Source: a virus
Virus record (IMG/VR): IMGVR_UViG_3300025110_000007
Span: 1-64,000 of that record
Direction: 5' to 3' (one strand)
Length of the DNA: 64,000 nucleotides
Part shown: piece by piece, positions 3,865 through 38,600 of the stretch
Position numbering within the stretch: the first letter of the stretch is position 1
Layout of the letters: each line of letters starts with the position of its first letter
Notes under the pieces: generated by a model
The model's database searches: none
Told to the model about the DNA's origin: nothing
Seen by the model: the letters and a program-made list of their open reading frames with translations, nothing else
Translations under genes and position numbers: made by a program

Positions 3865-4187
3865 GCGTGTACATCCAACTGAACAAAACGAAGAAGCGAG
3901 TCAACGAACTGGAGCAGGAACTTGACCTTGCCCAGCGACAACTGTGGGCACTGCGAGGAGCAGTGCTTGGTTCTTGGAAAGAGGCTGTTCGATGCGGTGC
4001 ACCGTGGCATAAGGAACTGCGTCACCCGATGGTGGATATGGGGTATCTCTTACACGAAGACTACCACTACTCAATCAATCCTGAATGGGAAGCCCACGCT
4101 ATGCAGTGGCTACGGAAATCGTACGACATGGACTTTGGCGAAGACGCTGAGGAACACTGGCAAGATACTTGGGGTGATGAAGAATGA
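3861..4187 (+). CDS. Hypothetical protein with N-terminal coiled coil
   Basis: ORF track; GGAGGTG SD. Confidence 0.7.
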   Translation: MSVYIQLNKTKKRVNELEQELDLAQRQLWALRGAVLGSWKEAVRCGAPWHKELRHPMVDMGYLLHEDYHYSINPEWEAHAMQWLRKSYDMDFGEDAEEHWQDTWGDEE

Positions 4188-4501
4188 GCATGCGCAAGAC
4201 ACAGATGGACCACATCCTAAGCAGGCTAAGATGGAGCATGCTTGAGAACAACAACGAATGGGTTTCTGCCAGTGAAATGATGTGGTTGTTGAAGGAGCAC
4301 ACAAAACCCCAAACCAATGCGTTGTACAGAGAGGCTTGTAGCAACAACAAGATACCAGTGCCCACATTCCGGTACCTCAACAACCAGAACCAGTTAGCAC
4401 ACAATGTTATCAGGTCAGGGGAATACGAAGTGATTAAGTCCCGAGTCATCCCTAATAGTCCGACAGTCAACATGTACCGACTCAAGGAGGTGACGGCATG
4501 A
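4184..4501 (+). CDS. Hypothetical protein ending in EVTA (possible winged helix)
   Basis: ORF track; ends in the GGAGGTGACGGCATGA junction. Confidence 0.65.
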   Translation: MSMRKTQMDHILSRLRWSMLENNNEWVSASEMMWLLKEHTKPQTNALYREACSNNKIPVPTFRYLNNQNQLAHNVIRSGEYEVIKSRVIPNSPTVNMYRLKEVTA

Positions 4502-4635
4502 AGGGCACTGTGGACATTTGTAGTACATACAATTGTAATACACAGAGCATGCCAATGCACCCCTCTGGCCTGTGCCATGCGTGTTATCAAGAAATAAAGC
4601 AGGCCGCCAGAGATGGCACAGAGTACATTCCATAG
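4498..4635 (+). CDS. 45-aa Cys-rich microprotein (MKGTVDIC...EYIP)
   Basis: Read manually; starts in the 16-bp junction; CHAC motif. Confidence 0.55.
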   Translation: MKGTVDICSTYNCNTQSMPMHPSGLCHACYQEIKQAARDGTEYIP

Positions 4636-6887: not shown

Positions 6888-7022
6888 ATGATTCCAGAAG
6901 TCGAACAGAAAATATATGACATCATAATGAGTCATGGCATGAAACTTGAGGAAGAAGCGTGGTTTCTATTGATGGGTATGGCTGATGACCTTATGGCACG
7001 CATGTGTGGGGTGTTTGAATGA
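6888..7022 (+). CDS. 44-aa microprotein (MIPEVEQK...GVFE)
   Basis: Read manually; GGAGG SD; fills the gap exactly. Confidence 0.5.
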   Translation: MIPEVEQKIYDIIMSHGMKLEEEAWFLLMGMADDLMARMCGVFE

Positions 7023-7732
7023 CACAGAACGAGCAAGTGTCACAACTGCTGGACGGCCTACAAGAAGGACAGGTCTGGGACCTGACCGGGCAGGGCCTCG
7101 TCTATCTGAAAGGTAAGGACAACACACTCAGCCTGATTGCCACCTTCAATTCATTGGAGTCGGCCAAGGTACATGGAGTAGTCAAAGGCGAAGCAGTCAA
7201 GAAAGGCTGGGTCGTCGACGACTCCTCCCCTATGGTAGTCAACACACAGGAAGAGCAGATGGAGTTCACCATGGGCCTCAAGCAACAGCAACTGGAGAAC
7301 ATGCGCTGTCCGGGCGAGGACTGTGAACTACCATTGGCGGCCTACGAACTCACCGATGTTGACTGGCGTTTCCTTGGCGACAAGGAAGTGCAGGGTGAAG
7401 ACGGCGAGATGATGACCTACGAGGACTGGGGCGTTGAGGCGTCCTGTCCTGCCTGCGACAATACAATTCTCATGCCACCACGGGACTACGAACTCATGGT
7501 AGGTACTGACCAACTTGAAAGGTACCGTGGTAAGAAGCGTACCTATCAGTTGCTACACCCACAGCAGGTGACGGACATCGTCGACTTGCAAGACATTTCT
7601 GCGACCGACTCTGGTCGTTTCAACCGGCTGGTTGTGTTAGGAAGTATCTGTCCAGTAAGCGGCGAACGACTGCCGATTCACATTCGTGGTCGTGTCGCAC
7701 TGTACGAAACAAACGGAGAGGAAGAGGAATGA
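7019..7732 (+). CDS. Zn-binding hypothetical protein
   Basis: 237-aa ORF with CPGEDC and CPAC. Confidence 0.75.
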   Translation: MTQNEQVSQLLDGLQEGQVWDLTGQGLVYLKGKDNTLSLIATFNSLESAKVHGVVKGEAVKKGWVVDDSSPMVVNTQEEQMEFTMGLKQQQLENMRCPGEDCELPLAAYELTDVDWRFLGDKEVQGEDGEMMTYEDWGVEASCPACDNTILMPPRDYELMVGTDQLERYRGKKRTYQLLHPQQVTDIVDLQDISATDSGRFNRLVVLGSICPVSGERLPIHIRGRVALYETNGEEEE

Positions 7733-7854
7733 AAGAAGAAGAATGCGCCATCTGTGCAGAAGACTACCACGACAGTGACCAGTACATCTGTGACGATTGT
7801 CATAGAGAACTTGAAGCACTGCGAGCAGACCAACTTGCATCGAGGTGGGACTGA
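7729..7854 (+). CDS. 41-aa Zn-finger microprotein (CAIC...CDDC)
   Basis: Read manually; ATGA overlap. Confidence 0.55.
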   Translation: MKEEECAICAEDYHDSDQYICDDCHRELEALRADQLASRWD

Positions 7855-8105
7855 TGAAGACAACAATCAAAAAAGGTTCAATGCCATGGGCTAAGGAAGG
7901 CTCCGATGAATACAAACTGTGGCATCAACTACGACTGCTAAAGTCAACCATCATCGAATGGGAAGAAATAATGCAAGAAGTCACCGATTGCGAAGCGGCT
8001 TTCGGGGTGGAATACAAAGTCACAGCAGACATTGAGGATGTGCAAGCGATGATAAAACATGTGACTAAGCAGTACGAACGATTCGGTAAAGTGGTGAGGT
8101 GGTAG
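7854..8105 (+). CDS. Hypothetical protein
   Basis: TGATG overlap; GAGGTG SD. Confidence 0.6.
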   Translation: MKTTIKKGSMPWAKEGSDEYKLWHQLRLLKSTIIEWEEIMQEVTDCEAAFGVEYKVTADIEDVQAMIKHVTKQYERFGKVVRW

Positions 8106-8106
8106 T

Positions 8107-8652
8107 ATGAACATCTTCGTACTTGACACCGACCCTACTGTTGCGGCTCAAATGCACTGCGACAAGCATGTACCTAAGATGTGCGTGGAGGCCGCACAGA
8201 TGATGGCATCAGCCCTGCGCCGACACGGTGCGACTGATGAGCAGATGCCACTGACCAAAGCAGGTAAGCCCTACAAGGGTGGCTACAAGCATCACCCATG
8301 CACAATTTTTGCGGGAGATTCTCGTAATAACTTCAAGTGGCTCGCTCGTCATGCTCAAAGACTACTCCGTGAATACGACCTTCGGTTTGGTAAAACACAC
8401 GCTTGCCATTGGCCTATTCATATCATGTCCACTATGAAAGACATAGTTCCCGAAGGTGGACTCACCCAATTCGCACTGGCTATGCCCGATGAGTACCGCC
8501 CCGAACCAATTGACGGTGAGGTTGTGTACCATGCTTACCCCGAACATGCGGTCAAGGCATACCGAGCCTACTACCATTCCAAGCAGTTCGCCAAGTGGGA
8601 GAAGGGAACACCCGCTCCCGACTGGTGGCAAGGCGTGGAGGTGACGGCATGA
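8107..8652 (+). CDS. Pyrimidine dimer DNA glycosylase-like protein (DenV-related family)
   Basis: MNIFVLD...HCDKHVPKMCVEAAQM, HHPCT, FALAMPDEY, AYRAYY motifs. Confidence 0.75.
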   Translation: MNIFVLDTDPTVAAQMHCDKHVPKMCVEAAQMMASALRRHGATDEQMPLTKAGKPYKGGYKHHPCTIFAGDSRNNFKWLARHAQRLLREYDLRFGKTHACHWPIHIMSTMKDIVPEGGLTQFALAMPDEYRPEPIDGEVVYHAYPEHAVKAYRAYYHSKQFAKWEKGTPAPDWWQGVEVTA

Positions 8653-8777
8653 ATCATGAATACAGAATAAAACGAATTAGAAATATCATCAAGCGATTTG
8701 AAGAAAGTGAACAGTTGATGGGCGACTTCGTGGCCGCTTGGGAACTTATCAAAGAACAAGTGGAGGTGACGGCGTGA
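8649..8777 (+). CDS. Cassette microprotein, 42 aa (MNHEYRIKR...EVTA)
   Basis: Bounded by two junction repeats. Confidence 0.7.
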   Translation: MNHEYRIKRIRNIIKRFEESEQLMGDFVAAWELIKEQVEVTA

Positions 8778-8878
8778 CCGACGCATACCTATTCAGTGAA
8801 TGGCAGTGCGGCAACTGCGGTCGTGGCTTCCCCGACAAGAACGATGCAGAAGAATGTTGTAAGGAGGTGACGGCGTGA
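8774..8878 (+). CDS. Cassette microprotein, 34 aa, Zn-finger-like (CGNC...CC...EVTA)
   Basis: Read manually; bounded by junction repeats. Confidence 0.7.
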   Translation: MTDAYLFSEWQCGNCGRGFPDKNDAEECCKEVTA

Positions 8879-9012
8879 GTGAATACGAAGACTGTGAAGT
8901 ATGCTTCAAGACTTGTTGCGCTAAGACTCAACCACTACATGATGTTCAAGCAGGGCGTATTTGTAGTGAGTGTCATTACCTAAATGAATATGGCGTGGAG
9001 GTGACGGCGTGA
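8875..9012 (+). CDS. Cassette microprotein, 45 aa, CxxC...CxxC (ends EVTA)
   Basis: Read manually; bounded by junction repeats. Confidence 0.7.
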   Translation: MSEYEDCEVCFKTCCAKTQPLHDVQAGRICSECHYLNEYGVEVTA

Positions 9013-9218
9013 CTAAGTGGGTTAGTGAATACTGGATTCATTATGAAAGTTCTGAATTACATATACTTGAAGGAAAGGATTGGCGACAATGGAAAGACTA
9101 CATTGACTATTCGTTTAATGGAGACAAAGTTATCTTAATTGAAAGAGTGAGAACCGAGTATGACGAATGCTCGACTTATGACCGAGAATATGAAACATTG
9201 TGGGAGGTGACGGCGTGA
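9009..9218 (+). CDS. Cassette microprotein, 69 aa (ends EVTA)
   Basis: ORF track; bounded by junction repeats. Confidence 0.7.
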   Translation: MTKWVSEYWIHYESSELHILEGKDWRQWKDYIDYSFNGDKVILIERVRTEYDECSTYDREYETLWEVTA

Positions 9219-9403
9219 GTGATACATGTGAACATTGTTCAAAACCAAAAGACCCTACTTGCTTTCATACCAAACACGATTTGGAAATCACTGCTGATAA
9301 CTTCAATCAATTCTGTGCCGATGAATGTACATGGAAGCGTGGCATTTGTTTTGATTGCGAAGAGGATTTACTTTCATGTGAATGCGTGGAGGTGACGGCG
9401 TGA
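9215..9403 (+). CDS. Cassette microprotein, 62 aa, Cys-rich (ends EVTA)
   Basis: GTG start within the junction. Confidence 0.7.
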   Translation: MSDTCEHCSKPKDPTCFHTKHDLEITADNFNQFCADECTWKRGICFDCEEDLLSCECVEVTA

Positions 9404-9594
9404 GATTTTGGAAGAAGAAGAAAGAAGAGAAGAAAGAGAAACCCTTCATGATAATATGCGAGAAGTGTCGGTGGGACTTTACAGACGATTACATCAAGAA
9501 TAACACCGATGGAAACATAAGGCCGATGTATGGCGACCATTGTTCATGCGGTGGGATTGTCGTGCGAGTGGATGAATTGGAGGTGACGGAATGA
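9400..9594 (+). CDS. Cassette microprotein, 64 aa, Lys-rich N-terminus plus Zn ribbon (ends EVTE)
   Basis: GTG start within the junction; CEKC and CSCGG. Confidence 0.7.
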   Translation: MRFWKKKKEEKKEKPFMIICEKCRWDFTDDYIKNNTDGNIRPMYGDHCSCGGIVVRVDELEVTE

Positions 9595-9728
9595 AGGAAT
9601 ACAGAATAGGAAGTCTTTGTGAAGAATGTGAAAGTTGTGAACTTGTCCAGTATAGGCGGGGTTGGAACTTGTCATGTCCCGAATGTGGTATAGATTACAC
9701 TTGGGATGGCGTGGAGGTGAAGGCGTGA
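9591..9728 (+). CDS. Cassette microprotein, 45 aa, Zn ribbon (CEEC...CPECG; ends EVKA)
   Basis: Read manually; bounded by junction repeats. Confidence 0.7.
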   Translation: MKEYRIGSLCEECESCELVQYRRGWNLSCPECGIDYTWDGVEVKA

Positions 9729-9976
9729 CTCAGACAATACAATGGCGAGCGGCGTCGACTATGCGCAAGTGGTTAGGAAAGGCTGAGTGTGTTATGAGTG
9801 TGGTGACCAGCGAGAAAGAAGGCGTGGCCCCCACCATTGACATTAGAATCAGACGAACCACTGACCACGCAAGTGGTGCCGGATGGACCAAAGAGGGCGT
9901 ACGCCTCAGTCTGGAGGATGCGTACAACTTGGCTGACTCAATACAGCACATCATCGACTCGTTAGAAAGGGATTGA
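9725..9976 (+). CDS. PC4-like ssDNA-binding protein
   Basis: IDIR...WTKEGVRLSLE resembles the PC4/YdbC signature; GTG start in the last junction. Confidence 0.55.
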   Translation: MTQTIQWRAASTMRKWLGKAECVMSVVTSEKEGVAPTIDIRIRRTTDHASGAGWTKEGVRLSLEDAYNLADSIQHIIDSLERD

Positions 9977-9977
9977 T

Positions 9978-11429
9978 ATGCTTCTGTCACTCGCCACGAA
10001 GGTGGCACGCACACTCCGTAGGTTGCACTATGGAAGAGGAGCCGGAGACAGTTCGGCTGACTTCCGTACTGCCATCAAGGCGGTGTCCCAAATCTTGGAG
10101 ATGACGACTGACGACTACGAGGAAATCATCGACATCTTTTATCCAAGGCACTCAAAACATCCACGGCGTTTCGTCACGGATGGCTGGGTCAGGGACAATG
10201 TGTGCAGTGAACTGGGTATCTCACCCCTCGTCTGGGACGAGTCACTTGTAGGCAAGCCAATCGTACTGGCACTTGCCTCAGAGAGCAGGGGCAACAAGAG
10301 TAGCGGGCTGACTGTGAAGCAGGCACTTCACCACATGCACCAACTGAGCGAGGTGGGTGTACTGGCGACATCCAAGTTAATGACCGAGGCTGAGGCCGAA
10401 CTCTTCTGGAGCAGAGCACTGGGTGAGAACCCGCCCTATCCAATAGAGCGATTCATTCAGCGTTGCACCCACATTGGCGAAGGGCAGGCCATGAGCCTAC
10501 CTGCTGTCAAGAAAGCACTGGACACGATGTCCCCTGCTGAGTTCCTTGTACGCCTACTCAAATACTCTGAGGCTGAGGTCGAGGTCCCTGACGAAATTCA
10601 ACCGGGACAACCGTTCCGAGGCCCGGTGTACAAGGCATGGACGCAGACAACAGCGCCCGCTGGCGTCTATGCTGAGGTAATACGCCACCCCAGACGATAC
10701 CTCCACATCACTGAGTTCCCCAGTGGCACCTACAATGGTGTGCTGTACAACCGGGACAAGCGTGCAGTGGCCAAGATGAACAGCCTTGACCTACCTATTC
10801 AACAAGCCTGTGTCCTTGAGGTGGAGGCGCAGGGCACTGTGGTCAAGTGTATTACGGATATTCTGTCGTTAGGACAGGACTGGTCTATTCATCAGCGACC
10901 GATGATGGAGCGACTCAGCCTATTGAAAGGGCTGGGCGTACAAGGTCAACTACGAGTAGGCGAACTTCTTGAAGAAGGGTCGTCGATTACCACCCTCGTG
11001 CATACACTGTCAGAAAATGAACGACTTCGACTCTCGTTCAACAGCCCCTTTCAAATAGGAGAGCAAGGTGGCTGGGCAGTTATGGACGGAACATATCACA
11101 TTCACTTACTGGTCCTCTCTATCAAGAAGGACGCAGAATACGAAACACATGTGCGCCTTGGTGTACTGGATGGGCTTGACCCATACCAAGTAATGGAGGC
11201 GAGGCTTCCAACTGAGATAGCCCAGCATGTGAGAACAAGACTCGCTCGACAAGGTGTACTTGTCGGAGCCCACTGGCTCCCGGTGGAAGAGCAAGCGGTT
11301 GTGGTGGCTGGCAAGGTGAACGAGGTTCGCCTGTCGACCATGACAATCACGGGAGAACTGCTTTATGCTGATGACAACCTCGGCTTTAGCGACCTCAGTC
11401 AACTGACTGACATCATAGAAATGACATAG
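9978..11429 (+). CDS. ATP-dependent DNA ligase-like protein, apparently catalytically degenerate
   Basis: Ligase-like motif order (AEVIRHPRRYLHI, LYNR, VLEVE, TDIL, RPMMERLSLL) without KxDG. Confidence 0.5.
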   Translation: MLLSLATKVARTLRRLHYGRGAGDSSADFRTAIKAVSQILEMTTDDYEEIIDIFYPRHSKHPRRFVTDGWVRDNVCSELGISPLVWDESLVGKPIVLALASESRGNKSSGLTVKQALHHMHQLSEVGVLATSKLMTEAEAELFWSRALGENPPYPIERFIQRCTHIGEGQAMSLPAVKKALDTMSPAEFLVRLLKYSEAEVEVPDEIQPGQPFRGPVYKAWTQTTAPAGVYAEVIRHPRRYLHITEFPSGTYNGVLYNRDKRAVAKMNSLDLPIQQACVLEVEAQGTVVKCITDILSLGQDWSIHQRPMMERLSLLKGLGVQGQLRVGELLEEGSSITTLVHTLSENERLRLSFNSPFQIGEQGGWAVMDGTYHIHLLVLSIKKDAEYETHVRLGVLDGLDPYQVMEARLPTEIAQHVRTRLARQGVLVGAHWLPVEEQAVVVAGKVNEVRLSTMTITGELLYADDNLGFSDLSQLTDIIEMT

Positions 11430-11702
11430 GTGAAACAAATGAAAGTAAATTGGAACATTGCATGGTTGGCTCTTGGGCCTAACATGAAGATAAAATGCGT
11501 GAACATACCAGATACCTCTTGGCGACAAGTCACAAAGGTTGAACGAATGCCCCAAATCAATGTGGGTGACATGGTGAAGAAAACAAGCACAGGGTACCAT
11601 GTGTATCAGACCATCGAGTCGACCGTACCTGTGTTCAAGTTCCCTTCACGAGTGACATTGAGTGAACCGATGGGAACAGAACCACGAGGTGAAGAAGAAT
11701 GA
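11430..11702 (+). CDS. Hypothetical protein
   Basis: ORF track; ends in a GGTGAAGAAGAATGA junction. Confidence 0.6.
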   Translation: MKQMKVNWNIAWLALGPNMKIKCVNIPDTSWRQVTKVERMPQINVGDMVKKTSTGYHVYQTIESTVPVFKFPSRVTLSEPMGTEPRGEEE

Positions 11703-11857
11703 CAACTAAAGATGTTCAAGACCGTTATGACAGGCTACCCCTTGAACTCAAGAAGTGTCTTGTTAAAGGATGCAACAACCTACGAACTCCTATCATGGTT
11801 TGGCATGGTTTCAAAAGATGTGAAATGGCTAACTGTCTTTACAAGGGGCGTGCCTGA
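11699..11857 (+). CDS. 52-aa Cys-containing microprotein
   Basis: Read manually; ATGA overlap; abuts the next ATG. Confidence 0.5.
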   Translation: MTTKDVQDRYDRLPLELKKCLVKGCNNLRTPIMVWHGFKRCEMANCLYKGRA

Positions 11858-12091
11858 ATGACGCTTAGACCGGGAAAATACGAGTGGATTCGCCACCTTG
11901 AAAGCAAGTGCGGTAAATGCAACAGACGCCTCTCCCGTGTGAAACAGGACGGGGTTATCCATGAGGTATGTCCGTCGTTTGTGTCGTCTTATCCATACAA
12001 TGTATGCCCTCATTCGGATTGGGAGTTCTATTTTGTCCCCAACAAGCATGGGGCACAGGGACGCTACGAAAGAAGATTAAGGAGTGAATAA
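11858..12091 (+). CDS. Zn-finger-like protein
   Basis: CGKC, CP...CPH. Confidence 0.6.
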   Translation: MTLRPGKYEWIRHLESKCGKCNRRLSRVKQDGVIHEVCPSFVSSYPYNVCPHSDWEFYFVPNKHGAQGRYERRLRSE

Positions 12092-22032: not shown

Positions 22033-22240
22033 TTGGTGCAGATTTTGTGGAAGGAAAATCAACCCGAGTACACAAGGGAAAAGGAGAAAAAAACCCATGT
22101 GCTACACCTGTCGGGAAGCAGGTGCTCCAGATGAGTTCAGATGCAAAGGTACCAATTCAAGTAAAAAAAGGTGCAAACAATGGGCCCTTGAAGACAAGAA
22201 TTACTGTGTTTCGCACAAACATCTGGAGGATAAAAAATGA
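22022..22240 (+). CDS. Basic Zn-finger protein
   Basis: CRFC, CYTC, CKG...C...CVSH. Confidence 0.65.
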   Translation: MAVNWCRFCGRKINPSTQGKRRKKPMCYTCREAGAPDEFRCKGTNSSKKRCKQWALEDKNYCVSHKHLEDKK

Positions 22241-22947
22241 GTACACCACCCCTAATTGTCGATAGCAACGAACGAGGTCCTCTGTACGAAGCAGTGGAAC
22301 GCATGGCCCGTAAGGAGGGTATCTTGGTCAAATCTCAATTCCTACAAGGGATGGGAGATTACAAAGCAGGTGACGGACATGTTGAGTGTAAAAGCCTCAA
22401 CGACTTCTTCCAATCCAGCCATAGCGGTCACTTGTGGCGTCAACTCGACAACCTCGACGCCAATTGTGGGCGTGTGTTTTTGGTTGTCCATGGTGACATT
22501 GCCAAGTACATCAAGATGGCACAGGCACGAGGTAAGAAGACTTCATACTCACGAGTCACCAACGAATTGATGGGTACTTTTGCCCGCATCATGGCTGATT
22601 TCGATTGTCATATTTACAAAGCCAAGGACCATGTGGAAGCCGCAATGTTCCTTGTCAAATTACATCAAAAGTTGCATAAGCCAGCCAGTAGGCATGGTGC
22701 AAGGGCGGTCACAAGAGTGTCCACTAACGATGTACGGCAGGACATGTTGCTCGCAATTCCGGGCTTTGGTCCCGATTTAGTCAGTAAGTTAATCGACAAA
22801 TGTGGCAGTATTGAGGAGATGGTTTATATCGAATCACTGAAACGGGTCAAAGGTATGGGACCCGTATTGCGCCAAAGGCTCATCGATGTTCTTACATCGG
22901 AAGAAGCCGTGCGTGTCGAGAAAACATATCAGAAACGGAGAGAATGA
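22237..22947 (+). CDS. ERCC4/XPF-type nuclease with HhH motifs
   Basis: VDSNE, GDY, VECKSLNDF, IPGFG, VKGMG. Confidence 0.88.
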   Translation: MSTPPLIVDSNERGPLYEAVERMARKEGILVKSQFLQGMGDYKAGDGHVECKSLNDFFQSSHSGHLWRQLDNLDANCGRVFLVVHGDIAKYIKMAQARGKKTSYSRVTNELMGTFARIMADFDCHIYKAKDHVEAAMFLVKLHQKLHKPASRHGARAVTRVSTNDVRQDMLLAIPGFGPDLVSKLIDKCGSIEEMVYIESLKRVKGMGPVLRQRLIDVLTSEEAVRVEKTYQKRRE

Positions 22948-32455: not shown

Positions 32456-32670
32456 TCTTCACCCCTCCATGCATCACATGTGCACTTACTGTTGCACTCA
32501 AAATCGAATAACTTGCACTTGCCCATGCCTTCTCCTTTAGCGACCCAGTGTCGGCAGTTGCCACATCGTTCGTTTTGGTTATCTGCTGGACAACGATAAT
32601 TTGGAGCGTCCTCCTTTGCTTTAAGTAGCGTCCAAGCCATGTTCAAAGCGTCGGCATCCATGTTGCTCAC
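32452..32670 (-). CDS. HiPIP-like Cys4 protein with NMAWTLLK leader
   Basis: PNYR...CGNCRHW...GKCKLF...CDAW. Confidence 0.55.
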   Translation of the reverse strand: MSNMDADALNMAWTLLKAKEDAPNYRCPADNQNERCGNCRHWVAKGEGMGKCKLFDFECNSKCTCDAWRGEE

Positions 32671-35600
32671 TCCGTGCTGTGGTCACCGCTATTAAAAGAT
32701 GTATCGCCTTTACTGCCCTTTGGGTGTAATGTTTGACTGTGACGGGGCTCAACAGAGTAGTCTTCCTTTCTTGCGGCATCGCTTCTGAAATGCTCCAGTG
32801 TGTTCTCACTCATTGTGATACGGGCTACTGGTTGCGTGATGTCAGTCTTGTCATAACCAGACACATCGACTCCGAGAATCTTAGGTCCTTGGCTCACTGC
32901 GGCACTGTTAGCAGGGTTGACACTGTACACAGGTGCGTACGGTGGACTGCTTGGTGTACCTGTACGAGCAGAGGCCGCATCGCTGGTATAGATACCATAC
33001 TTCCCACCTGCTGTGGCGGCGTAAAATGTACCGCCTGCTTGAGGTGCTCCTGACTTTACTGCCATGTTAGAACGGAACAACTGTACATGTGAGTTATCTA
33101 AAACAAAGGCTGGTCTAACCAAAAACTCAATTTCAGAGTCAGCGTGGTTTATGTTCTCAGTCACCGAAGTGTGATTACTATCTTGGTATGGATTGGAGGA
33201 AGAAGTTGCTCCGGCCTCGCCCCAGCCAGTCACATCGAGTGCACCTGCTCTGCGCTTCCAATTCATAACATAGGTACCACCAAGAGCCCAGAATGAGTGT
33301 GCATCAGACACCTTGATGATGCCTTTTACAGGTTGCCCTGTCCAGTCCAGTGCAGTCATATCGAGGTGACCAAGTGTACGATTGCCGACATTCATGGCTC
33401 CTCTGAGTGTCGTTCGCTGACCAACATCTCTGTTGCTGTGTAGGCTGTGCGCTTCTGTCGACATAACCACATACTCACGGCTCACACCGTCGTTGAGTTC
33501 TCCGAGTGTGTCAACATCCAATCCAATCCGCACACCGTCACCGCCGACAGGCTCTGCAAGCATGGTGTCCGTGGTGATTGATTCAGTCGTTTCATTGACC
33601 ATTGCAGTCGGCTTGAGAAGCCCATCATCGTCAGCGAGGTCGAGGCGTGCACTGATACCACGGTCTGTTTCACCGGCTTGCAATACATCGTTTCTCGGGC
33701 GAACTAAGCCCTTACCAACGGTAGGCTCAGCAGTCGGTTGAGACAGCACCAGCCCTGTCGGCTCAACGGTTTCAGAAATATCCATGAGGAGGCTTTCGTT
33801 GAAATGTGTAGGCCACCGTACACCACGCCCATCCCCTCGGTCACCTACTCGCATAGCGTTCGTTGGGTTGAACCAATCCACGATAGCCATAGCCGCTACA
33901 TCGTTATTGGCTGTGTTGGAATTGCCACTCTGTCGGTCAGTACTGGTGGCAAAGAGGCCATTCGCTTCTGGTCGATTGCCACTGCCGCCGTCTTCGTATG
34001 CATCTTCTGGGTCCCACGCAGGAGAAATACCGAAGCCACGCACTGGGAAGCGACGGACATCTTCTCCACGAGTGTTGCCCCACCAGTCAACCATGTAGTA
34101 GCGGTGTGCTTGAGCAATCTCTGCAATTTCTAAGCCCGCCCTGTCACCTGCGTACATCCTTCGTACACTGGACGAGTTGCGGATTGTACGAACAGGACAG
34201 CCAAAAGCACGAGTCATTCTGCGTCCGTCGCTGTATCTGACTTGGCGGCCCAATTGGTCTTGATTGAGCAATGCACTAATTTGAGTAAGTCGTTCCAAAA
34301 CACCCGTGTAAGTTGCAGGATAATCAGTGCCGCCTACCCAACCGTCATCTTTGTTATCTTGCTGGATGAATGGTCCATGGTAATAACCAAGCAAAGCATT
34401 GGCGTTAGCCACTTCCAAGTAGCCTCGGACATAAGGCGACCAGCGTGGGCGATTGTACGGTTGACGCAAAGCAAAGCGATAGCCAAAGCAAGTATTTCGG
34501 GCATTATCAGATGCTGTCGTCATCTGTGCGTATGTTCGCTCTTCAAGACCAGTGTTGTCATGGAAACTCACACAGTCAACTCCGAATAACTTCCCACCCC
34601 ATCCAATGAGTGTTTCAAGGAAACCATCTAAACGACTGGAGCCTGCTCCTCCTCTGGAACCACCCGGCCAATAGCCTGCGAAATTGTATTTGTCCGAACC
34701 AATAGTGCCTCCTTGATGCGAAAGATTACCGTCACCATCCATGTCAGCACCACTTTTAGTGGTACCAGTTCCACCTGTACCTGCCGCACCGGGCGGTATA
34801 ATCCACCTCATTCCAAATGTGAACGGACCTTTAGAGGCCGCATAGAAGAAATCATTGTAGTGAATTGTTTCAAAGTGTTCAGGGACATTGTTGAGTCCTT
34901 TCTTGAGAACAGGTGTATCTGTTGCTCCGTTCTTGTCGTAAAAGCCTCTGCTGTTGTCATCGGAGTAGTAAGTGAAAGGACGGCCCAAGTTCGGATGCCA
35001 CATACACAAATACGCATCAGCAAGATGTAGGCTGTTTGTATCACGAGTACCATTCATGGTTTGTGGCATAACCCGAGTTGTCATGCTGACAAGCGAATTA
35101 GTGAAAATTTCATCTGCCTTCCGGTTGTCATAAGGCCCGCTTAAACGAATAATTGTGTCATTGGTTAAGTTGTCAAAGAATAGAGGAGTGACTTCCGTGA
35201 CACCTTGGAACTGTGTAGGCGTCCCAAGAGTAGCGTGGGCCAATGTTCCTGTTCGGTTTGTGTAGGTAGCCGTCTGCCTTTCCCCGTTAGCATCTGTGTA
35301 TTCCAAAACCTCTCCGTAGTATGCTTTGACTGGGAACAGTTCAGCATTATCCACATTGACTGTACTGCCTCCAGCAGATGAGGCTGTGACCTTAGCATTG
35401 GGGTTCAAAGAGCGAACACGATAGTGCTCTGCGTAAATGTCAGGGTAGCATGTAGGATAACCAGCAAGTGTAATCTGAGCACCTACTGCGCCAAAGGTAG
35501 CCCTGTTCATCTGATAGTAGTGGTCAGGTGTATGCCACTCCAAATGTCTGAAATGTGTAGCGGCTGATGCAGTTGCTCCGTCCTTGTGCAACTGTGCCCA

Positions 35601-38600
35601 CCACGGCACTGTGAGCGTAAATCCGGGTGTAGTCTGAATGAACATGTTGGGGTGGTAGGGCAAGGTGCGTCTGCTAAATGCAGGTGATGTAGTCTCTTCT
35701 ACACCAAGAGCGTTGTAGTTGGCCAATGGAGGCAGGTTTGTGAATTGGCTGGAGGCATCAGGCTCAAGGTCGAGCATAATTTCATTGAGCATAATTTCAC
35801 AACCTCTGACATCCGCCATGGTTGCCTCTGCCAAAATCAAGGTATAGGCACCATTTGTGTTGCTCCCGTCATCGTGAGCGATGGCGACCACGGTGTTCAC
35901 CTGTTGCCCTGTCAATTCTGTGACCTTAGTACCAGATTCGGATGGGGCCTTCACTGCGTCTGAATGGTTGCTGTGATAACCAGAGAATTGTTGCTTGAAC
36001 ACATTTGGCTGAATAATAATCTGATATGCTCCGACTTCCATAGGGTCAGGGAAATGGTCGTTGAGAGTGTAGGAACCAGCCGCCTCTAACACAATGGAGT
36101 GGCCTCCCTGTGAATTAGTCGTGCCTGCACTACCTTTCGATGCGGCTATCCCGTAGCCGTCGAATTTGACTTTGGTTTCAGTCAAGAGAGTGAATGCCCC
36201 GCCGTGTATGTCAGAAGGTCCGTATGGTGCAGACGCACCTGAGAACCAAACCAGAGGGTCACGAGGATTAAGGCGTTCAAGTAAGTCGTTGCCGCTGTAT
36301 TCAGCGGACATGTCCTCCTCAAAGGTTGATGATGTAGTAATTCGACTTGCTTGACCAAGATTGTAAAGTCGTTGATACGCAGGGTGAGCATAGTGCCCCG
36401 GCATCAAAGCCATTGTTGGTGTGACATAATGATGGCCCATGCGTGGAATAGGCATAGGCGTCATCTTGGGTGCACTCAGAGCAGTGTGTGGAGTCCCGTT
36501 GACGGCAGTCCAGTCAATGGTCTTCATGTCTGGGCTGGCCCCGCTGTATTCACTGTGGTCCCGCAACCGTCGAGAAGCAAAGAAACGAGTGCTACCAGCA
36601 GGCATGAAGTATGATGGTACAACCTTGAGTCCGGTTTTACCAGTCACGAAAGAAACAAAGTCTGGACTGTACACAACGCCTGTGAATTTATTCGTCCCTG
36701 TGTTGGTGTAAGAGGCTAAAACACCCTTGTTGGTCGTAGGGTCGTACACTCGTAAGAACCAGCGACCGCCGCTTGATTCTCCGTTATCTTTCCATGTGTC
36801 ATCTTCCGGTGTACTACCAACTGTGATTTCAGTACCTGAGTAGCCACTGTAAGTCAGTTCATCAACATCATAGCGGTGTGTCATTGTGACACCGACACGA
36901 GTCACATGGAATTGTAAAGAGCGGTCATGGGGTTCGTATGCTGTGTTCAAAGGAGCGTTGTCAGTGTGTGACTCCCAGCCCTTTGAAGAACTGGCAGGGA
37001 ACGCCAAACGGTCATCAGAAAGGTCCGTACCGTCTTGCGACAGGTGTTCCCAACCATTGTTCTCCCAAGTAGGCCAAAGCCTCGGCCCATCGTAGGTTTC
37101 TTTGAATGTATCAGTTATAGATGGCTGTGCTTGAGCAGGGTGCATCAAACCACCAGAGCCCATGGTTTCGTTTTGGTAAGCCTGTATTCGGTCAAAGCCC
37201 GGTCGAACAATGATGTTGCCGGGAATTTCATCAGCGTTTGGTAGTCGAATCTTCATGTTGGGTGATATACCAGACCCAGCGATAGCGGGGGACAAGCCCT
37301 CTATGTCACGGTCACTTACATGTCTGAAATCCATGATGACTGTGCCCAAAGGACTGCCACCCTCAAGACGGTGTTCTTGGCCTGTGTCATCAACAACTTG
37401 CATGCTTTCAAATTGCAAGTGCTCGTTGGGTATAATCAGAGCGTTTTCCTTTTCGTTGATGTGCTTCTGTGCCAATTGAGGATGGCTCAGTTCCTGTGCT
37501 TGGATGATTGGGAACATAGCACTGTTCGTCGACTCAAAAGAGAATCGACAATTGCCCAGAATCTTTTCCCCAACTGTCTTGTAAGACCCGCCGTCTTTGC
37601 GAACAGTCCAAGGTATCATACCAAGGCCACGAGCATTTGATGCAGGCATGGTTAAGTTGCCTCCGTCCATTCGTTTCCATACTATGTGCTCTTCTGTAAA
37701 GTTGCGAGCCGCACTTTTTGTATCGTAGTACTTGTACAATCCTGCTGATGTTTCGTAGTATTCTGTACGAGAAGTGATTCCTGTGCACTCCTGTACCAAA
37801 GTATCTGCCAGAGTATGCAGTTGGTTGGTAGACATAATAGATTTGTCCCAAAACAAATCTCCTGTTGGGCTTTGACAGGGGTCTGCCCTGCTAACATGGC
37901 TGGTCGAGGTGACCCTTGCATTTGGATAAGCAACTGTATCGACATTCGGATAGGCTGTGAAATCTGTGCTTGCTCTAATGTTTGCTTCGACATGAGGCCC
38001 TGCTGTGGCAGGAGCATTGTACCGGCTCTTGTTGTGAACCTTGTTTATGCTCCAAGCCTGTGTACCTGCTCTCAAGATGTTGCCGTCTGCTTTGACAGAA
38101 AGCCAGTCACCAGATGCAATGATGCCATCTCTGTCTGTTTTGGCTATGAGAGGTAGTTCACTTTCATGGCTGACTGCTACCAAGTGACGGCTGGATAAGC
38201 CATGTACACAAAAATCATTGGCTAACGATGAAGGCGTGTCTGTTATACCGATAGGTGGAGATGATGCCAAGCAGGTTTCAGCGGAGCCATAAGGAGCAAA
38301 GCCCAAGAACGGATGCCAAGCCCCGAGTCCAGCAGGGAATTTGGTTCCACCAATTGAGGTACCGTTGTAGGAATTCAGATACGAATATGCCTCTCCTGCC
38401 CACCCAACTGCCCCTATGGGTTTGGTACGGTCAACTGCGTCCATAAAGCCGTTGAAGTGCACCTGTGTCATGTGTTCACGAGATTGAGTCGTGTTGTTGT
38501 ATTGATGTGTGCCCGCTTTAGTCCAAACATAAACGACAGCAGGTCCGTTGTCACCGTTCACTTGAGCGGCCGCTATTGCCGCTTTAGTTGTAGGGTCAAC

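What the first reader, a model, noticed from the sequence alone, without database searches (positions are those of the whole stretch)
8632..9728. Array of unrelated microgenes joined by a near-identical 16-bp multifunctional junction (EVTA cassettes)
Seen: eight copies of GGAGGTGACGGC(A/G)TGA (two with one substitution; several extend 5' to GCGTGGAGG) at 8637, 8762, 8863, 8997, 9203, 9388, 9579 and 9713. Unit lengths are 125, 101, 134, 206, 185, 191 and 134 bp, all 2 mod 3. Each unit is exactly one ORF of 34-69 aa that starts in one junction and stops in the next, so the proteins end in EVTA/EVTE/EVKA. Five of the seven are Cys-rich, and the bodies are otherwise unrelated. Known: GGAGGTGA is the archaeal SD and (A/G)TGA overlap gives translational coupling, but neither requires the CGGC spacer to be conserved. 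Inference: the junction is a recombination handle. Any exchange between two copies would add, delete or reorder complete, expressible genes, giving an integron-like but apparently integrase-free microgene array (perhaps host-takeover or anti-defence effectors). Alternatively the shared C-terminal EVTA peptide is a degron or docking tag.
Basis: partly seen in the sequence, partly recalled or inferred. Interest (0 to 1): 0.85.

Follow-up and report, generated by a model that had tools for sequence, protein, structure and literature searches.

The report
Swappable microgene cassettes with standard junction
An uncultured marine archaeal virus strings unrelated tiny genes together with one fixed 16-20-base connector that ends one gene and starts the next, and related viruses have gained, lost, swapped and reordered single genes exactly at that connector.

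Summary
Eight copies of GGAGGTGACGGCRTGA lie at the stated places, plus a ninth at 4486 (0.03 expected). They delimit seven ORFs of 34-69 aa.

The window belongs to a 90-kb virus record that fits group A magroviruses of Marine Group II archaea.

In 80 related loci the junction is kept on one strand only, at 0-11 copies per locus. The genes between the copies differ: 156 chained cassettes fall into 96 families.

Homology between shared cassettes stops inside the junction on both sides. Thirteen of 23 locus pairs share a cassette at 95% identity or more while at most 14% of their flanks align.

Codon choice in the junction goes against the genome's usage (ACG 129, ACA 18, ACC/ACT 0). Conservation therefore acts on the nucleotides, not on the EVTA peptide.

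Cassettes are real genes (pooled dN/dS 0.20). In relatives the cargo includes DNA methyltransferases.

No integrase, attC-like palindrome, promoter or terminator was found.

My best reading is a combined coupling signal and microhomology exchange site. It works like the PeSLs of T4-type phages but is translational. I found no paper on it.

The scan had already noted and followed up the same junction in other genomes, with the same reading.

The parts
8107..8652 (+). Anchor gene (181 aa), glycosylase-like. Its last 16 bases are junction 1.
   Evidence: Pfam Pyr_excise E 1.5e-7; phrog_624 E 2.4e-54. 52 of 81 homologues end in the junction-encoded tail after a conserved ..WW; 29 have other tails.
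8637..8652 (+). Junction 1 (exact, ATG form)
8649..8777 (+). Cassette 1, 42 aa, no Cys (family F19)
   Evidence: 90.7% identical copy in L034
8762..8777 (+). Junction 2 (exact)
8774..8878 (+). Cassette 2, 34 aa, Cys-rich (F5)
   Evidence: 100% identical over 85 nt to L022, whose flanks align over only 1% of 10,287 nt
8863..8878 (+). Junction 3 (exact)
8875..9012 (+). Cassette 3, 45 aa, Cys-rich (F2)
   Evidence: Found in 5 loci with 4 different upstream and 4 different downstream neighbours
8997..9012 (+). Junction 4 (exact)
9009..9218 (+). Cassette 4, 69 aa (F12)
   Evidence: 94.7% identical to L012, where it follows F20 instead of preceding it. Absent from L009.
9203..9218 (+). Junction 5 (exact)
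9215..9403 (+). Cassette 5, 62 aa, Cys-rich (F20)
   Evidence: absent from L009; no family lead
9388..9403 (+). Junction 6 (exact)
9400..9594 (+). Cassette 6, 64 aa, Cys-rich (F6)
   Evidence: 98.8% identical to L039, where it follows the glycosylase-like gene directly
9579..9594 (+). Junction 7 (one substitution)
9591..9728 (+). Cassette 7, 45 aa, Cys-rich (F59)
   Evidence: Replaced by another cassette in L009. In run X5 one contig places it directly after the glycosylase-like gene.
9713..9728 (+). Junction 8 (one substitution)
9725..9976 (+). 83-aa gene that starts in junction 8 and ends without one (F13); the end of the array
   Evidence: no Pfam or PHROG match
4486..4501 (+). Ninth junction copy. 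It joins a 105-aa ORF (4184-4501) to a 45-aa ORF (4498-4635, F18).
   Evidence: F18 is 94.8% identical in L034
19750..20706 (+). PD-(D/E)XK nuclease; candidate resection enzyme (inference only)
   Evidence: Pfam PDDEXK_1 E 3.7e-22
22237..22947 (+). ERCC4/XPF-type nuclease; candidate flap-removal enzyme (inference only)
   Evidence: Pfam ERCC4 E 1.5e-9

Best explanation
The region is a hyperplastic accessory-gene array of a magrovirus, an uncultured tailed virus assigned to Marine Group II archaea. Its genes are joined by one standard junction, about 20 nt long with a 12-16-nt invariant core.

The junction does three things at once.
- It supplies the last codons, (G)VEVTA, and the TGA stop of the upstream gene.
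- It supplies an 8-nt Shine-Dalgarno sequence and an overlapping ATG or GTG start for the downstream gene. Any gene placed between two junctions is therefore translated by coupling, whatever its content or position.
- It is the only sequence shared by otherwise unrelated neighbours. It therefore serves as the patch of microhomology at which co-infecting relatives, or sister genome copies, exchange whole genes.

A crossover inside the junction always rebuilds an intact stop, ribosome-binding site and start. Every gain, loss, replacement or reordering therefore yields an expressible array.

Shown here: the anatomy; the nucleotide-level conservation; the coding status of the cassettes; and cassette gain, loss, replacement and reordering with homology ending in the junction, including between genomes that do not otherwise align.

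Inferred: that the shared sequence drives the exchange, for example by single-strand annealing, microhomology-mediated repair or template switching, perhaps using the virus's PD-(D/E)XK and ERCC4 nucleases; that translation is coupled; and that the cargo serves host takeover or counter-defence.
For: Anatomy: 9 copies on one strand against 0.03 expected.

Rigidity of the unit: in 949,853 nt from 81 sequences, 167 of 184 GGAGGTGA on the + strand are followed by N4-RTGA, and the full pattern never occurs on the - strand. N4 is CGGC in 124 of 167.

Nucleotide-level constraint:
- The Thr codon in the junction is ACG 129, ACA 18, ACC 0, ACT 0. ACG makes up only 11.9% of 1,208 Thr codons in 26 long ORFs of the window.
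- At 31 non-duplicate glycosylase-like 3' ends, the junction codons GTG, GAG and GTG are invariant and GGC is 30 of 31. Synonymous sites just upstream vary.
- The tail is attached to unrelated folds, and 29 of 81 glycosylase homologues lack it.

Exchange at the junction:
- The closest relative, L009, shares cassettes 3 and 6 and the 83-aa gene. It lacks cassettes 4 and 5 and has other genes in place of 1, 2 and 7.
- 34 families occur in 2 or more loci. Of these, 20 have 2 or more different upstream neighbours and 17 have 2 or more different downstream neighbours.
- Of 83 cassette pairs with at least 85% identity, 5' homology ends within 22 nt of the start codon in 50, at 23-40 nt in 2, and runs on for more than 40 nt in 31. 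On the 3' side, of 43 pairs, 25 end within 6 nt of the stop, 1 at 7-20 nt, and 17 run on.
- 13 of 23 locus pairs that share a microcassette at 95% identity or more have flanks that are at most 14% alignable.
- The junction's 5' extension travels with the upstream cassette (identity 0.78-0.89 against 0.37-0.76). The start-codon letter travels with the downstream one (0.69 against 0.50). This places crossovers in the invariant core.

Metagenome contigs: one contig of run X5 reads glycosylase end, cassette 7, 155 unknown nt, cassette 2, cassette 3. Another joins the end of cassette 3 to cassette 1. Run X4 holds both this order and the window's order.

Cassettes are genes: pooled dN/dS is 0.20, and differences by codon position are 39, 38 and 100, over 23 pairs.

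Assemblies are reproducible: six pairs of contigs from different metagenomes carry arrays with the same cassette families in the same order (L010/L011, L014/L015, L018/L020, L028/L030, L037/L038, L073/L075). In every cassette pair compared between them the bodies are 100% identical.
Against: - No experiment or read-level data show the exchange happening. Only contigs were available, and several of the listed joints rest on sides of only 20-25 nt, which is the motif itself.
- Pairs in the counts share ancestry, so the counts overstate the number of independent events.
- A core of 12-20 nt is short for classical RecA/RadA-type recombination.
- No Rad51/RadA-family match was found in the 85%-complete record.
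- Breakpoints at gene boundaries are also what selection would leave after random illegitimate recombination.
- Variant junction cores are not shared within arrays more than chance allows: 5 observed against 2.95 expected, and 336 of 2,000 shuffles reach 5. There is therefore no sign of within-array homogenisation.
- In the family maps, no cassette family occurs twice within one array. Frequent unequal crossing-over would be expected to produce such duplicates.
- 13 of 129 same-family pairs are less similar than the neighbouring gene.
Confidence: 0.72

Rival explanations
1. The junction is conserved only for expression, as a coupled re-initiation signal or the operator of an RNA-binding regulator. 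The rearrangements come from sequence-independent illegitimate recombination, and selection keeps only recombinants that break at gene boundaries.
For: - The junction holds an 8-nt SD and an RTGA overlap.
- Other genes of the virus use looser junctions of the same design, such as GGTGAAGAAGAATGA.
- GTG starts are frequent in junctions: 107 G against 83 A at the start position in 191 copies. They would depend on a strong SD.
- No recombinase was found.
- There is no within-array homogenisation of variants.
- The same 20-mer occurs as a single copy in 77 of 79 stretches from unrelated high-GC bacteria. It is therefore an ordinary possible SD/overlap sequence.
Against: - The GC-rich spacer and the 5' extension lie outside the 8-nt SD and the start/stop overlap. 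They are built from the genome's rarest Thr and Ala codons.
- All 52 non-syntenic 5' breakpoints fall within 24 nt of the start codon (50 of them within 22 nt), and none falls in a cassette body. The five intermediate values (62, 62, 144, 144, 144 nt) are of the size of one further cassette, but I did not check that they end at the next junction.
- Outside the array, the window/L009 replacement at 11662-12078 does not end at a junction.
- The 25 relatives without the motif have no equally fixed junction.
- This reading is not exclusive of the main one.
Confidence: 0.2
2. It is a true integron-like system. A dedicated site-specific recombinase, perhaps unrecognised or host-encoded, cuts and joins at the junction and moves cassettes as excised circles.
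For: - The core sequence is strictly conserved and always in one orientation.
- Arrays sit at one preferred locus next to the glycosylase-like gene. The chain starts at its stop in 50 of 81 loci. 52 of 70 IMG/VR stretches with the 20-mer hold a homologue of that gene.
Against: - No tyrosine or serine recombinase was found in the record, though it is only 85% complete.
- The junction has no dyad symmetry or attC-like hairpin.
- The loci were selected through the glycosylase-like gene, so that association is partly circular.
Confidence: 0.04
3. The shared C-terminal peptide (G)VEVTA is the selected feature, as a degron, docking or targeting tag. The DNA identity is a by-product.
For: 71 of 95 unique internal cassette proteins end in EVTA.
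Against: - Codon use is fixed against the genome's preference: ACG 129, ACA 18, ACC/ACT 0. There is zero synonymous variation at GTG, GAG and GTG.
- The residue at the Thr position changes to K, M or S while the bases around it stay.
- The tail follows the conserved end of the glycosylase-like protein at two different distances (WWEVTA and WWxGVEVTA) and is absent from 29 of 81 homologues.
Confidence: 0.04

Closest known systems
PeSLs (promoter-early stem-loops) in hyperplastic regions of T4-type phages (Arbiol et al. 2010, PMC2839356, passages read; Comeau et al. 2014, PMC4122927, abstract read)
   Same: A short conserved expression signal flanks ORFan genes in a variable region. It is the place where insertions, deletions and replacements between related viruses begin and end. 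No integrase is involved, and homologous recombination at the motif is the proposed mechanism.
   Different: - A PeSL is transcriptional (sigma-70 promoter plus terminator stem-loop), intergenic and longer.
- This junction is translational (SD, stop and start), lies inside coding sequence and adds a common tail to every protein.
- It has no promoter, terminator or hairpin, has a core of only 12-20 nt, and belongs to an archaeal virus.
- PeSL mini-circles were shown by experiment. Here circles are untested.
Short conserved boundary (linker) sequences proposed for mosaic lambdoid phages (as cited in Pope et al. 2011, PMC3029335, passages read)
   Same: Homologous recombination at short sequences shared at module boundaries yields mosaics with intact genes.
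   Different: [quoted passage not shown] Here one sequence marks every boundary of an array and recurs 124 times exactly in 44 loci.
Start-associated sequences (SAS) of Cluster K mycobacteriophages (Pope et al. 2011, PMC3203893, passages read)
   Same: An asymmetric repeat of about 13 bp lies immediately upstream of the starts of genes of different families, in one orientation. It is conserved across subclusters and is thought to act in translation initiation.
   Different: - The sequence is different.
- SAS copies are scattered over the genome, not chained.
- SAS are not described in the passages read as stop/start overlaps or as exchange points.
Integron gene-cassette arrays
   Same: A one-way chain of single-gene cassettes of unrelated content sits at a fixed locus and draws on a large shared pool.
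   Different: No IntI-type recombinase, no attC palindrome, and cassette boundaries lie inside coding sequence.

Membership tests
PeSL cassettes (T4-type phages) | Sigma-70-like early promoter in the motif | tested here: not met
   Only 2 promoter-like sites in 7000-10400 (3.5 expected), and none at a junction. The host is archaeal by inference.
PeSL cassettes (T4-type phages) | Stem-loop terminator in the motif | tested here: not met
   No terminator-like site at any junction. The only inverted repeat in 8600-9760 is unrelated to the junctions.
PeSL cassettes (T4-type phages) | The motif flanks ORFans in a hyperplastic region and marks indel and replacement boundaries between relatives | tested here: met
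   the cassettes have no Pfam or PHROG family
PeSL cassettes (T4-type phages) | Mini-circles formed by exchange between neighbouring motifs | not testable with these tools
   Only assembled contigs were served
Integron | IntI tyrosine recombinase next to the array | tested here: not met
   PF00589 has no match in the 90-kb record, which is 85% complete. PF00239 has none either.
Integron | attC sites with imperfect inverted repeats | tested here: not met
   No inverted repeat at the junctions
Start-associated sequences (Cluster K mycobacteriophages) | The specific 13-bp SAS consensus | tested here: not met
   The junction sequence differs from the consensus quoted in PMC3203893
Start-associated sequences (Cluster K mycobacteriophages) | Asymmetric repeat directly upstream of the starts of genes of different families | tested here: met
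Magrovirus, group A (for the genome) | Family B DNA polymerase with nearest relatives in haloarchaeal tailed viruses | tested here: met
   tblastn best hits are HCTV/HRTV viruses, 25% identity over 93% of the query, E 3e-37. The pattern is described in PMC5434244.
Magrovirus, group A (for the genome) | Clamp-loader ATPase, nucleases, thermosome-type chaperonin and SNF2 helicase | tested here: met
   AAA/RFC-like, PDDEXK_1, ERCC4 and Cpn60_TCP1 (E 1e-133); SNF2. PMC5434244 states that group A has the thermosome subunit and the SNF2 helicase.
Magrovirus, group A (for the genome) | RadA-like ATPase, MCM, primase, PCNA | tested here: inconclusive
   PF08423 gave no match. The paper says most of these proteins are found only by profile-profile searches. 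The others were not searched.

The most novel reading that the evidence does not exclude
The junction is the site of an integrase-free gene-capture system of archaeal viruses. It circulates a pan-viral pool of microgenes and DNA methyltransferases as free one-cassette intermediates. Breaks are made on purpose at or near the junction by a viral enzyme, such as the always-adjacent glycosylase-like protein or the PD-(D/E)XK and ERCC4 nucleases. Array turnover would then be a regulated diversification mechanism, not a passive by-product of homology.
Probability: 0.15. Interest if true: 0.85.

Novelty: new variant of a known kind. Interest (0 to 1): 0.64.

Why it matters
- It is an unusually clean natural example of the old idea that short boundary sequences build viral mosaics. 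One 16-20-nt signal marks every boundary of the array, is kept across viruses that no longer align elsewhere, and always regenerates a working stop, ribosome-binding site and start.
- It extends PeSL-type modular shuffling from transcription signals of T4-type phages to a translation signal inside coding sequence, and to viruses assigned to some of the most abundant archaea of the surface ocean.
- It defines a large pool of real but unannotated microgenes: 96 families in 50 arrays, mostly Cys-rich and 31-130 aa. DNA methyltransferases sit in the same slots, which makes this pool a natural place to look for counter-defence and host-takeover functions of archaeal viruses.
- The junction is also a ready-made design for plug-in polycistronic expression.

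Tried and rejected
- **Frameshift fusion.** I considered programmed frameshifting that would fuse successive cassettes. I rejected it on reading the sequence: there is no slippery heptamer at the junction, and the next frame is reached only through the RTG start.
- **RNA structure.** A fold of 8600-9760 gave no recurring structure at the junctions (no shuffle control above 1,000 nt).
- **Lineage-specific junctions in the 25 motif-less relatives.** None was found. The commonest 12-mer before RTGA occurs 7 times.
- **Within-array homogenisation of variant junctions.** Not significant.
- **Function of the seven microgenes.** Pfam gave nothing below E 0.01. PHROGs gave one weak hit of unknown function. 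The ESM Atlas gave best scores of 0.87 with no named family for cassette 5. No structure was predicted.
No Pfam or PHROG match, so it is neither confirmed nor excluded.
- **RadA/Rad51 in the record.** No match.
- **Expression.** One 3,105-nt contig from a metatranscriptome library (X19) spans a relative's glycosylase-like gene, array and downstream gene. DNA carry-over cannot be excluded, so I do not count it as evidence of transcription.
- **Joints with sides of 20-25 nt.** These match only the motif and are not counted.
- **GTDB scan.** 77 of 79 stretches are single chance or locus-specific copies in high-GC bacteria. No Poseidoniales genome appeared, so the scan adds no host link.
- **Literature.** These searches found no paper on this junction:
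  - the 12-mer searched anywhere in full text gave 10 unrelated papers;
  - a combined search of 'magrovirus' with zinc, small proteins, hypervariable, gene cassettes and mosaicism listed no relevant paper among the 12 shown;
  - a term search inside PMC5434244 found none of zinc, cassette, Shine, glycosylase or recombin, and 'variable' once in an unrelated sense;
  - a term search inside PMC11706807 found none of hypervariable, zinc, cassette, mosaic, glycosylase or recombin.

PMC10160649 and PMC10768690 were seen only in the search listing.
- **Backbone measure.** The glycosylase-like gene proved a poor measure of backbone relatedness, because it is itself swapped. I therefore replaced the comparison by the flank alignments.
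Full report
**1. The observation**

The 16-mer GGAGGTGACGGCRTGA occurs on the + strand at 8637, 8762, 8863, 8997, 9203, 9388, 9579 and 9713. The last two copies have one substitution each. A ninth exact copy lies at 4486. The number expected by chance is 0.03, and 0 of 100 shuffles reach 9 matches.

The 8-mer GGAGGTGA occurs 10 times in the 64-kb window, and 9 of these are inside this motif. The other genes of the window use shorter and looser purine-rich sites. The motif is therefore not the virus's general ribosome-binding site.

Read from the junction start codons, the seven intervals are single ORFs of 42, 34, 45, 69, 62, 64 and 45 aa. Each stops in the next junction. An 83-aa gene (9725-9976) starts in the last junction.

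The unit lengths of 2 mod 3 follow arithmetically from the RTGA overlap. They add no information.

In the whole 90,220-base virus record there are 9 copies on the forward strand and none on the reverse strand.

**2. What the genome is**

The record is an IMG/VR virus contig, linear and 85% complete by CheckV. The window encodes:
- a family B DNA polymerase whose best matches are haloarchaeal tailed viruses (25% identity over 93% of the query);
- an RFC-like AAA ATPase, a PD-(D/E)XK nuclease, an ERCC4 nuclease and a thermosome-type chaperonin (E 1e-133);
- an SNF2 helicase.

Philosof et al. 2017 (PMC5434244, passages read) describe magroviruses, assigned to Marine Group II Euryarchaeota, as having this gene set. 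They name the thermosome subunit and the SNF2 helicase as traits of their group A.

The runs that hold the stretch are marine metagenomes: 24 rows from 20 studies. The host itself was not tested here.

**3. Relatives**

The glycosylase-like anchor gene (8107-8652; Pfam Pyr_excise; phrog_624) has 350 relatives in IMG/VR. The best 80 were fetched, at 88% to 46% amino-acid identity.

- The motif (up to 2 mismatches) is present in 56 of the 81 sequences, window included. Copy number per locus is 0 to 11, and no copy lies on the reverse strand.
- Over 191 copies the consensus extends 5' to GCGT (G 147, C 124, G 139, T 147 of 191). The common protein tail is therefore (G)VEVTA.
- An unbroken chain of junction-started ORFs begins at the anchor's stop codon in 50 of 81 loci. 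Together these chains hold 156 cassettes in 96 blastp families.
- With the looser 3-mismatch definition there are 256 junction-started ORFs in 161 families, 104 of them singletons.

**4. Cassettes are exchanged at the junction**

The closest relative, L009, has flanks that align to the window's over 93% of their length at 96% identity. It shares cassettes 3 and 6 and the 83-aa gene. It lacks cassettes 4 and 5 and has unrelated genes in place of 1, 2 and 7.

Order also changes. The window has F12 then F20, while L012 has F20 then F12. L018 has F2 then F1, while L060 has F1 then F2.

Of 34 families seen in two or more loci, 20 have at least two different upstream neighbours and 17 have at least two different downstream neighbours.

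Eight printed alignments show near-complete identity inside the cassette. Of their 16 boundaries, 15 show an abrupt loss of similarity just outside the motif. At the sixteenth, L009 and L034 also share the next gene.

Over 83 cassette pairs with at least 85% identity, the 5' homology ends as follows:
- within 12 nt of the start codon in 21 pairs;
- at 13-22 nt in 29 pairs;
- at 23-40 nt in 2 pairs;
- beyond 40 nt, where the neighbour is shared, in 31 pairs.

On the 3' side, of 43 pairs, 25 end within 6 nt of the stop, 1 ends at 7-20 nt, and 17 run on.

These pairs share ancestry, so they are not independent events.

**5. Transfer between distant viruses**

I first compared cassette identity with that of the adjacent anchor gene. 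Of 129 pairs, 75 were higher by more than 5 points, 13 were lower and 41 fell within 5 points. The anchor gene turned out to be swapped itself. In L034 it is 78.5% identical to the window's, between flanks of 98.2% and 97.4%.

I therefore aligned the flanks outside the anchor and the array. Twenty-three locus pairs share a microcassette of equal length at 95% identity or more. Their flanks divide as follows:
- 13 pairs have flanks that are at most 14% alignable by blastn, and 8 of these have none alignable at all;
- 5 pairs are 82-93% alignable;
- 5 pairs are essentially identical contigs.

Two examples: cassette 2 of the window is 100% identical over 85 nt to L022, while 1% of 10,287 flank bases align. 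L062 and L073 share two cassettes at 96% and 100%, while none of 9,450 flank bases align.

**6. Where the crossovers lie**

The junction has a few variable positions that can act as markers.
- The 5' extension goes with the upstream cassette. Identity is 0.78-0.89 among junctions with the same upstream but different downstream family. It is 0.37-0.76 for the converse, close to the background of 0.36-0.67.
- The first letter of the start codon goes with the downstream cassette (0.69 against 0.50; background 0.52).

The exchange points therefore fall in the invariant core between these markers.

**7. Population data**

Only Logan contigs were served, so rare variants and circles cannot be seen.

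In run X5, one 565-nt contig reads as follows: the last 72 nt of the anchor gene, cassette 7, 155 nt that match nothing in the window, cassette 2, and the start of cassette 3. A 388-nt contig joins the end of cassette 3 to cassette 1.

Run X4 holds the same cassette 7 to cassette 2 arrangement. It also holds contigs with the window's own joins: cassette 3 to 4, 4 to 5 to 6, and 6 to 7.

Two orders of nearly identical cassettes therefore coexist in one sample.

Joints whose shorter side is only 20-25 nt match the motif alone. I do not count them.

**8. Nucleotides or peptide?**

Taking only GGAGGTGA followed by any four bases and RTGA, there are 167 sites on the + strand of 949,853 nt and none on the - strand. 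The four bases are CGGC in 124 of them.

The Thr codon is ACG 129 times, ACA 18 times, and never ACC or ACT. The rest are Lys, Ser, Met, Asn or Arg codons. In 26 long ORFs of the window, ACG is the rarest Thr codon (11.9% of 1,208) and GCG is the rarest Ala codon (11.3%).

At 31 non-duplicate anchor-gene 3' ends, the junction codons GTG, GAG and GTG are invariant and GGC is 30 of 31. Synonymous sites a few codons upstream vary; for example, one Gly codon is GGT 14, GGA 12, GGC 4 and GGG 1.

The tail is also added to unrelated proteins:
- an N6/N4 methyltransferase whose Pfam domain ends 10 residues before it;
- a C5-methylase-like protein;
- the anchor protein, at two different distances from its conserved WW, while 29 of 81 homologues lack the tail.

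Selection therefore acts on the bases, and the peptide is a by-product.

By recall, and not tested here, only the 8-mer is complementary to the conserved 3' end of 16S rRNA. The spacer and the extension need another explanation.

**9. The cassettes**

Pooled over 23 equal-length pairs, dN/dS is 0.20. Differences by codon position are 39, 38 and 100. The cassettes are therefore protein-coding genes under purifying selection.

Of 95 unique internal cassette proteins (31-248 aa, median 53), 54 have four or more Cys, 19 have two or more CxxC motifs, and 11 have no Cys. That many are small zinc-binding proteins is my inference from these patterns.

None of the window's seven has a Pfam, PHROG or Atlas lead.

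Larger genes occupy the same junction-bounded slots in relatives: two C5 cytosine methylase ORFs in L014, an N6/N4 methylase in L019 and a D12 adenine methylase in L033. This is the only functional hint, and it points to protection against restriction.

**10. What it is not**

- There is no tyrosine or serine recombinase in the record.
- There is no dyad symmetry at the junction.
- There is no promoter-like or terminator-like site at the junction.
- There is no slippery sequence for frameshift fusion.

It is not an assembly artefact. Six pairs of contigs from different metagenomes carry arrays with the same cassette families in the same order, and every cassette pair compared between them is 100% identical.

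Two contigs binned into bacterial MAGs, labelled Maricaulis and Opitutales, carry the anchor gene and arrays. They are therefore mis-binned virus.

The other 77 of 79 GTDB stretches hold single copies in high-GC bacteria. The sequence by itself is thus an ordinary possible SD/overlap.

**11. Mechanism**

The best-supported reading is a dual-use junction. For expression, every cassette inherits the same strong SD and an overlapping stop/start. For evolution, the same 12-20 identical bases are the only homology between neighbours and between distant genomes, and exchange within them regenerates a functional junction.

How the exchange happens is inferred, not shown. Annealing of short homologies after resection, or template switching during replication, seems more likely than classical strand invasion.

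The virus encodes a PD-(D/E)XK nuclease and an ERCC4/XPF-type nuclease, which could resect ends and trim flaps. The magrovirus paper reports a RadA-like ATPase in all genomes, but I did not find one with PF08423.

Several results speak against a simple homology-driven picture, or at least limit it:
- variant junction cores are not homogenised within arrays (5 shared pairs against 2.95 expected; 336 of 2,000 shuffles reach 5);
- no family is seen twice within one array in the maps;
- the main rival, expression-only conservation plus selection on random recombinants, cannot be excluded without experiments.

**12. Comparison with known systems**

The nearest known system is the PeSL of T4-type phages. 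It follows the same logic, with a conserved expression signal flanking ORFans as the exchange point and no integrase. The signal is different, however: a promoter plus a terminator, in intergenic DNA. The defining promoter and stem-loop are absent here, so this is not a PeSL.

It fits the older concept of short conserved boundary sequences far better than most phage mosaics do.

It resembles the start-associated sequences of Cluster K mycobacteriophages in position and asymmetry, but not in sequence or arrangement.

My searches found no paper on this junction.

Within this scan, the same junction had already been noted in at least six other genomes. It was followed up three times with the same reading. 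I saw those notes only after reaching mine.

**13. Verdict**

It is a new variant of a known kind of system. It is of real interest for virus genome evolution and for mining archaeal-virus microgenes. The causal step, that homology drives the exchange, still awaits experiment.

Noticed in passing
window 3230, 6697, 7721, 11691, 16600 (+ strand): A second, looser junction type, GARGARGARTGA, gives proteins ending in ...EEE and an ATGA overlap. Homology between the window and L022 starts at 7721. Identity to L034 drops from 98.2% to 78.5% at 7733/7735. This junction type may therefore also be an exchange point.
   Followed up: partly
window 7735-8652: The module with the glycosylase-like gene and two small upstream ORFs is itself swapped. 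It is 78.5% identical to L034 between flanks of 98.2% and 97.4%. In L023, L041, L074 and L088 the gene is junction-flanked on both sides.
   Followed up: partly
L014:6543-8197, L019:6960-7703, L033:7003-7779: DNA methyltransferases of three classes (C5, N6/N4 and D12 Dam) occupy junction-started slots next to the anchor gene in relatives.
   Followed up: partly
L223 (NZMJ01000078.1), L213 (CAXXDF010000003.1): Contigs binned into Maricaulis and Opitutales MAGs carry the glycosylase-like gene (80% and 73% identity) and junction arrays. They are probably mis-binned magrovirus DNA.
   Followed up: partly
window 11662-12078 vs L009 4122-4716: This is a replacement outside the array: two small genes in the window against one 176-aa gene in L009. 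Its left end lies about 27 nt before an EEE-type junction, not in it.
   Followed up: partly
window 8658-8669 and 9597-9608: Cassettes 1 and 7 share an identical 12-mer at their N-terminal codons (..EYRI..), although they are otherwise unrelated.
   Followed up: no
window 32667-48173 (- strand): A single ORF of 5,168 aa lies in the late-strand block.
   Followed up: no
Genes at the equivalent position in L022 and L062 look related by eye.
   Followed up: partly
L160-L237 (GTDB): The exact 20-mer occurs once each in many Paraburkholderia, Streptomyces and Saccharopolyspora genomes. These are presumably conserved SD/overlap junctions of bacterial genes.
   Followed up: no
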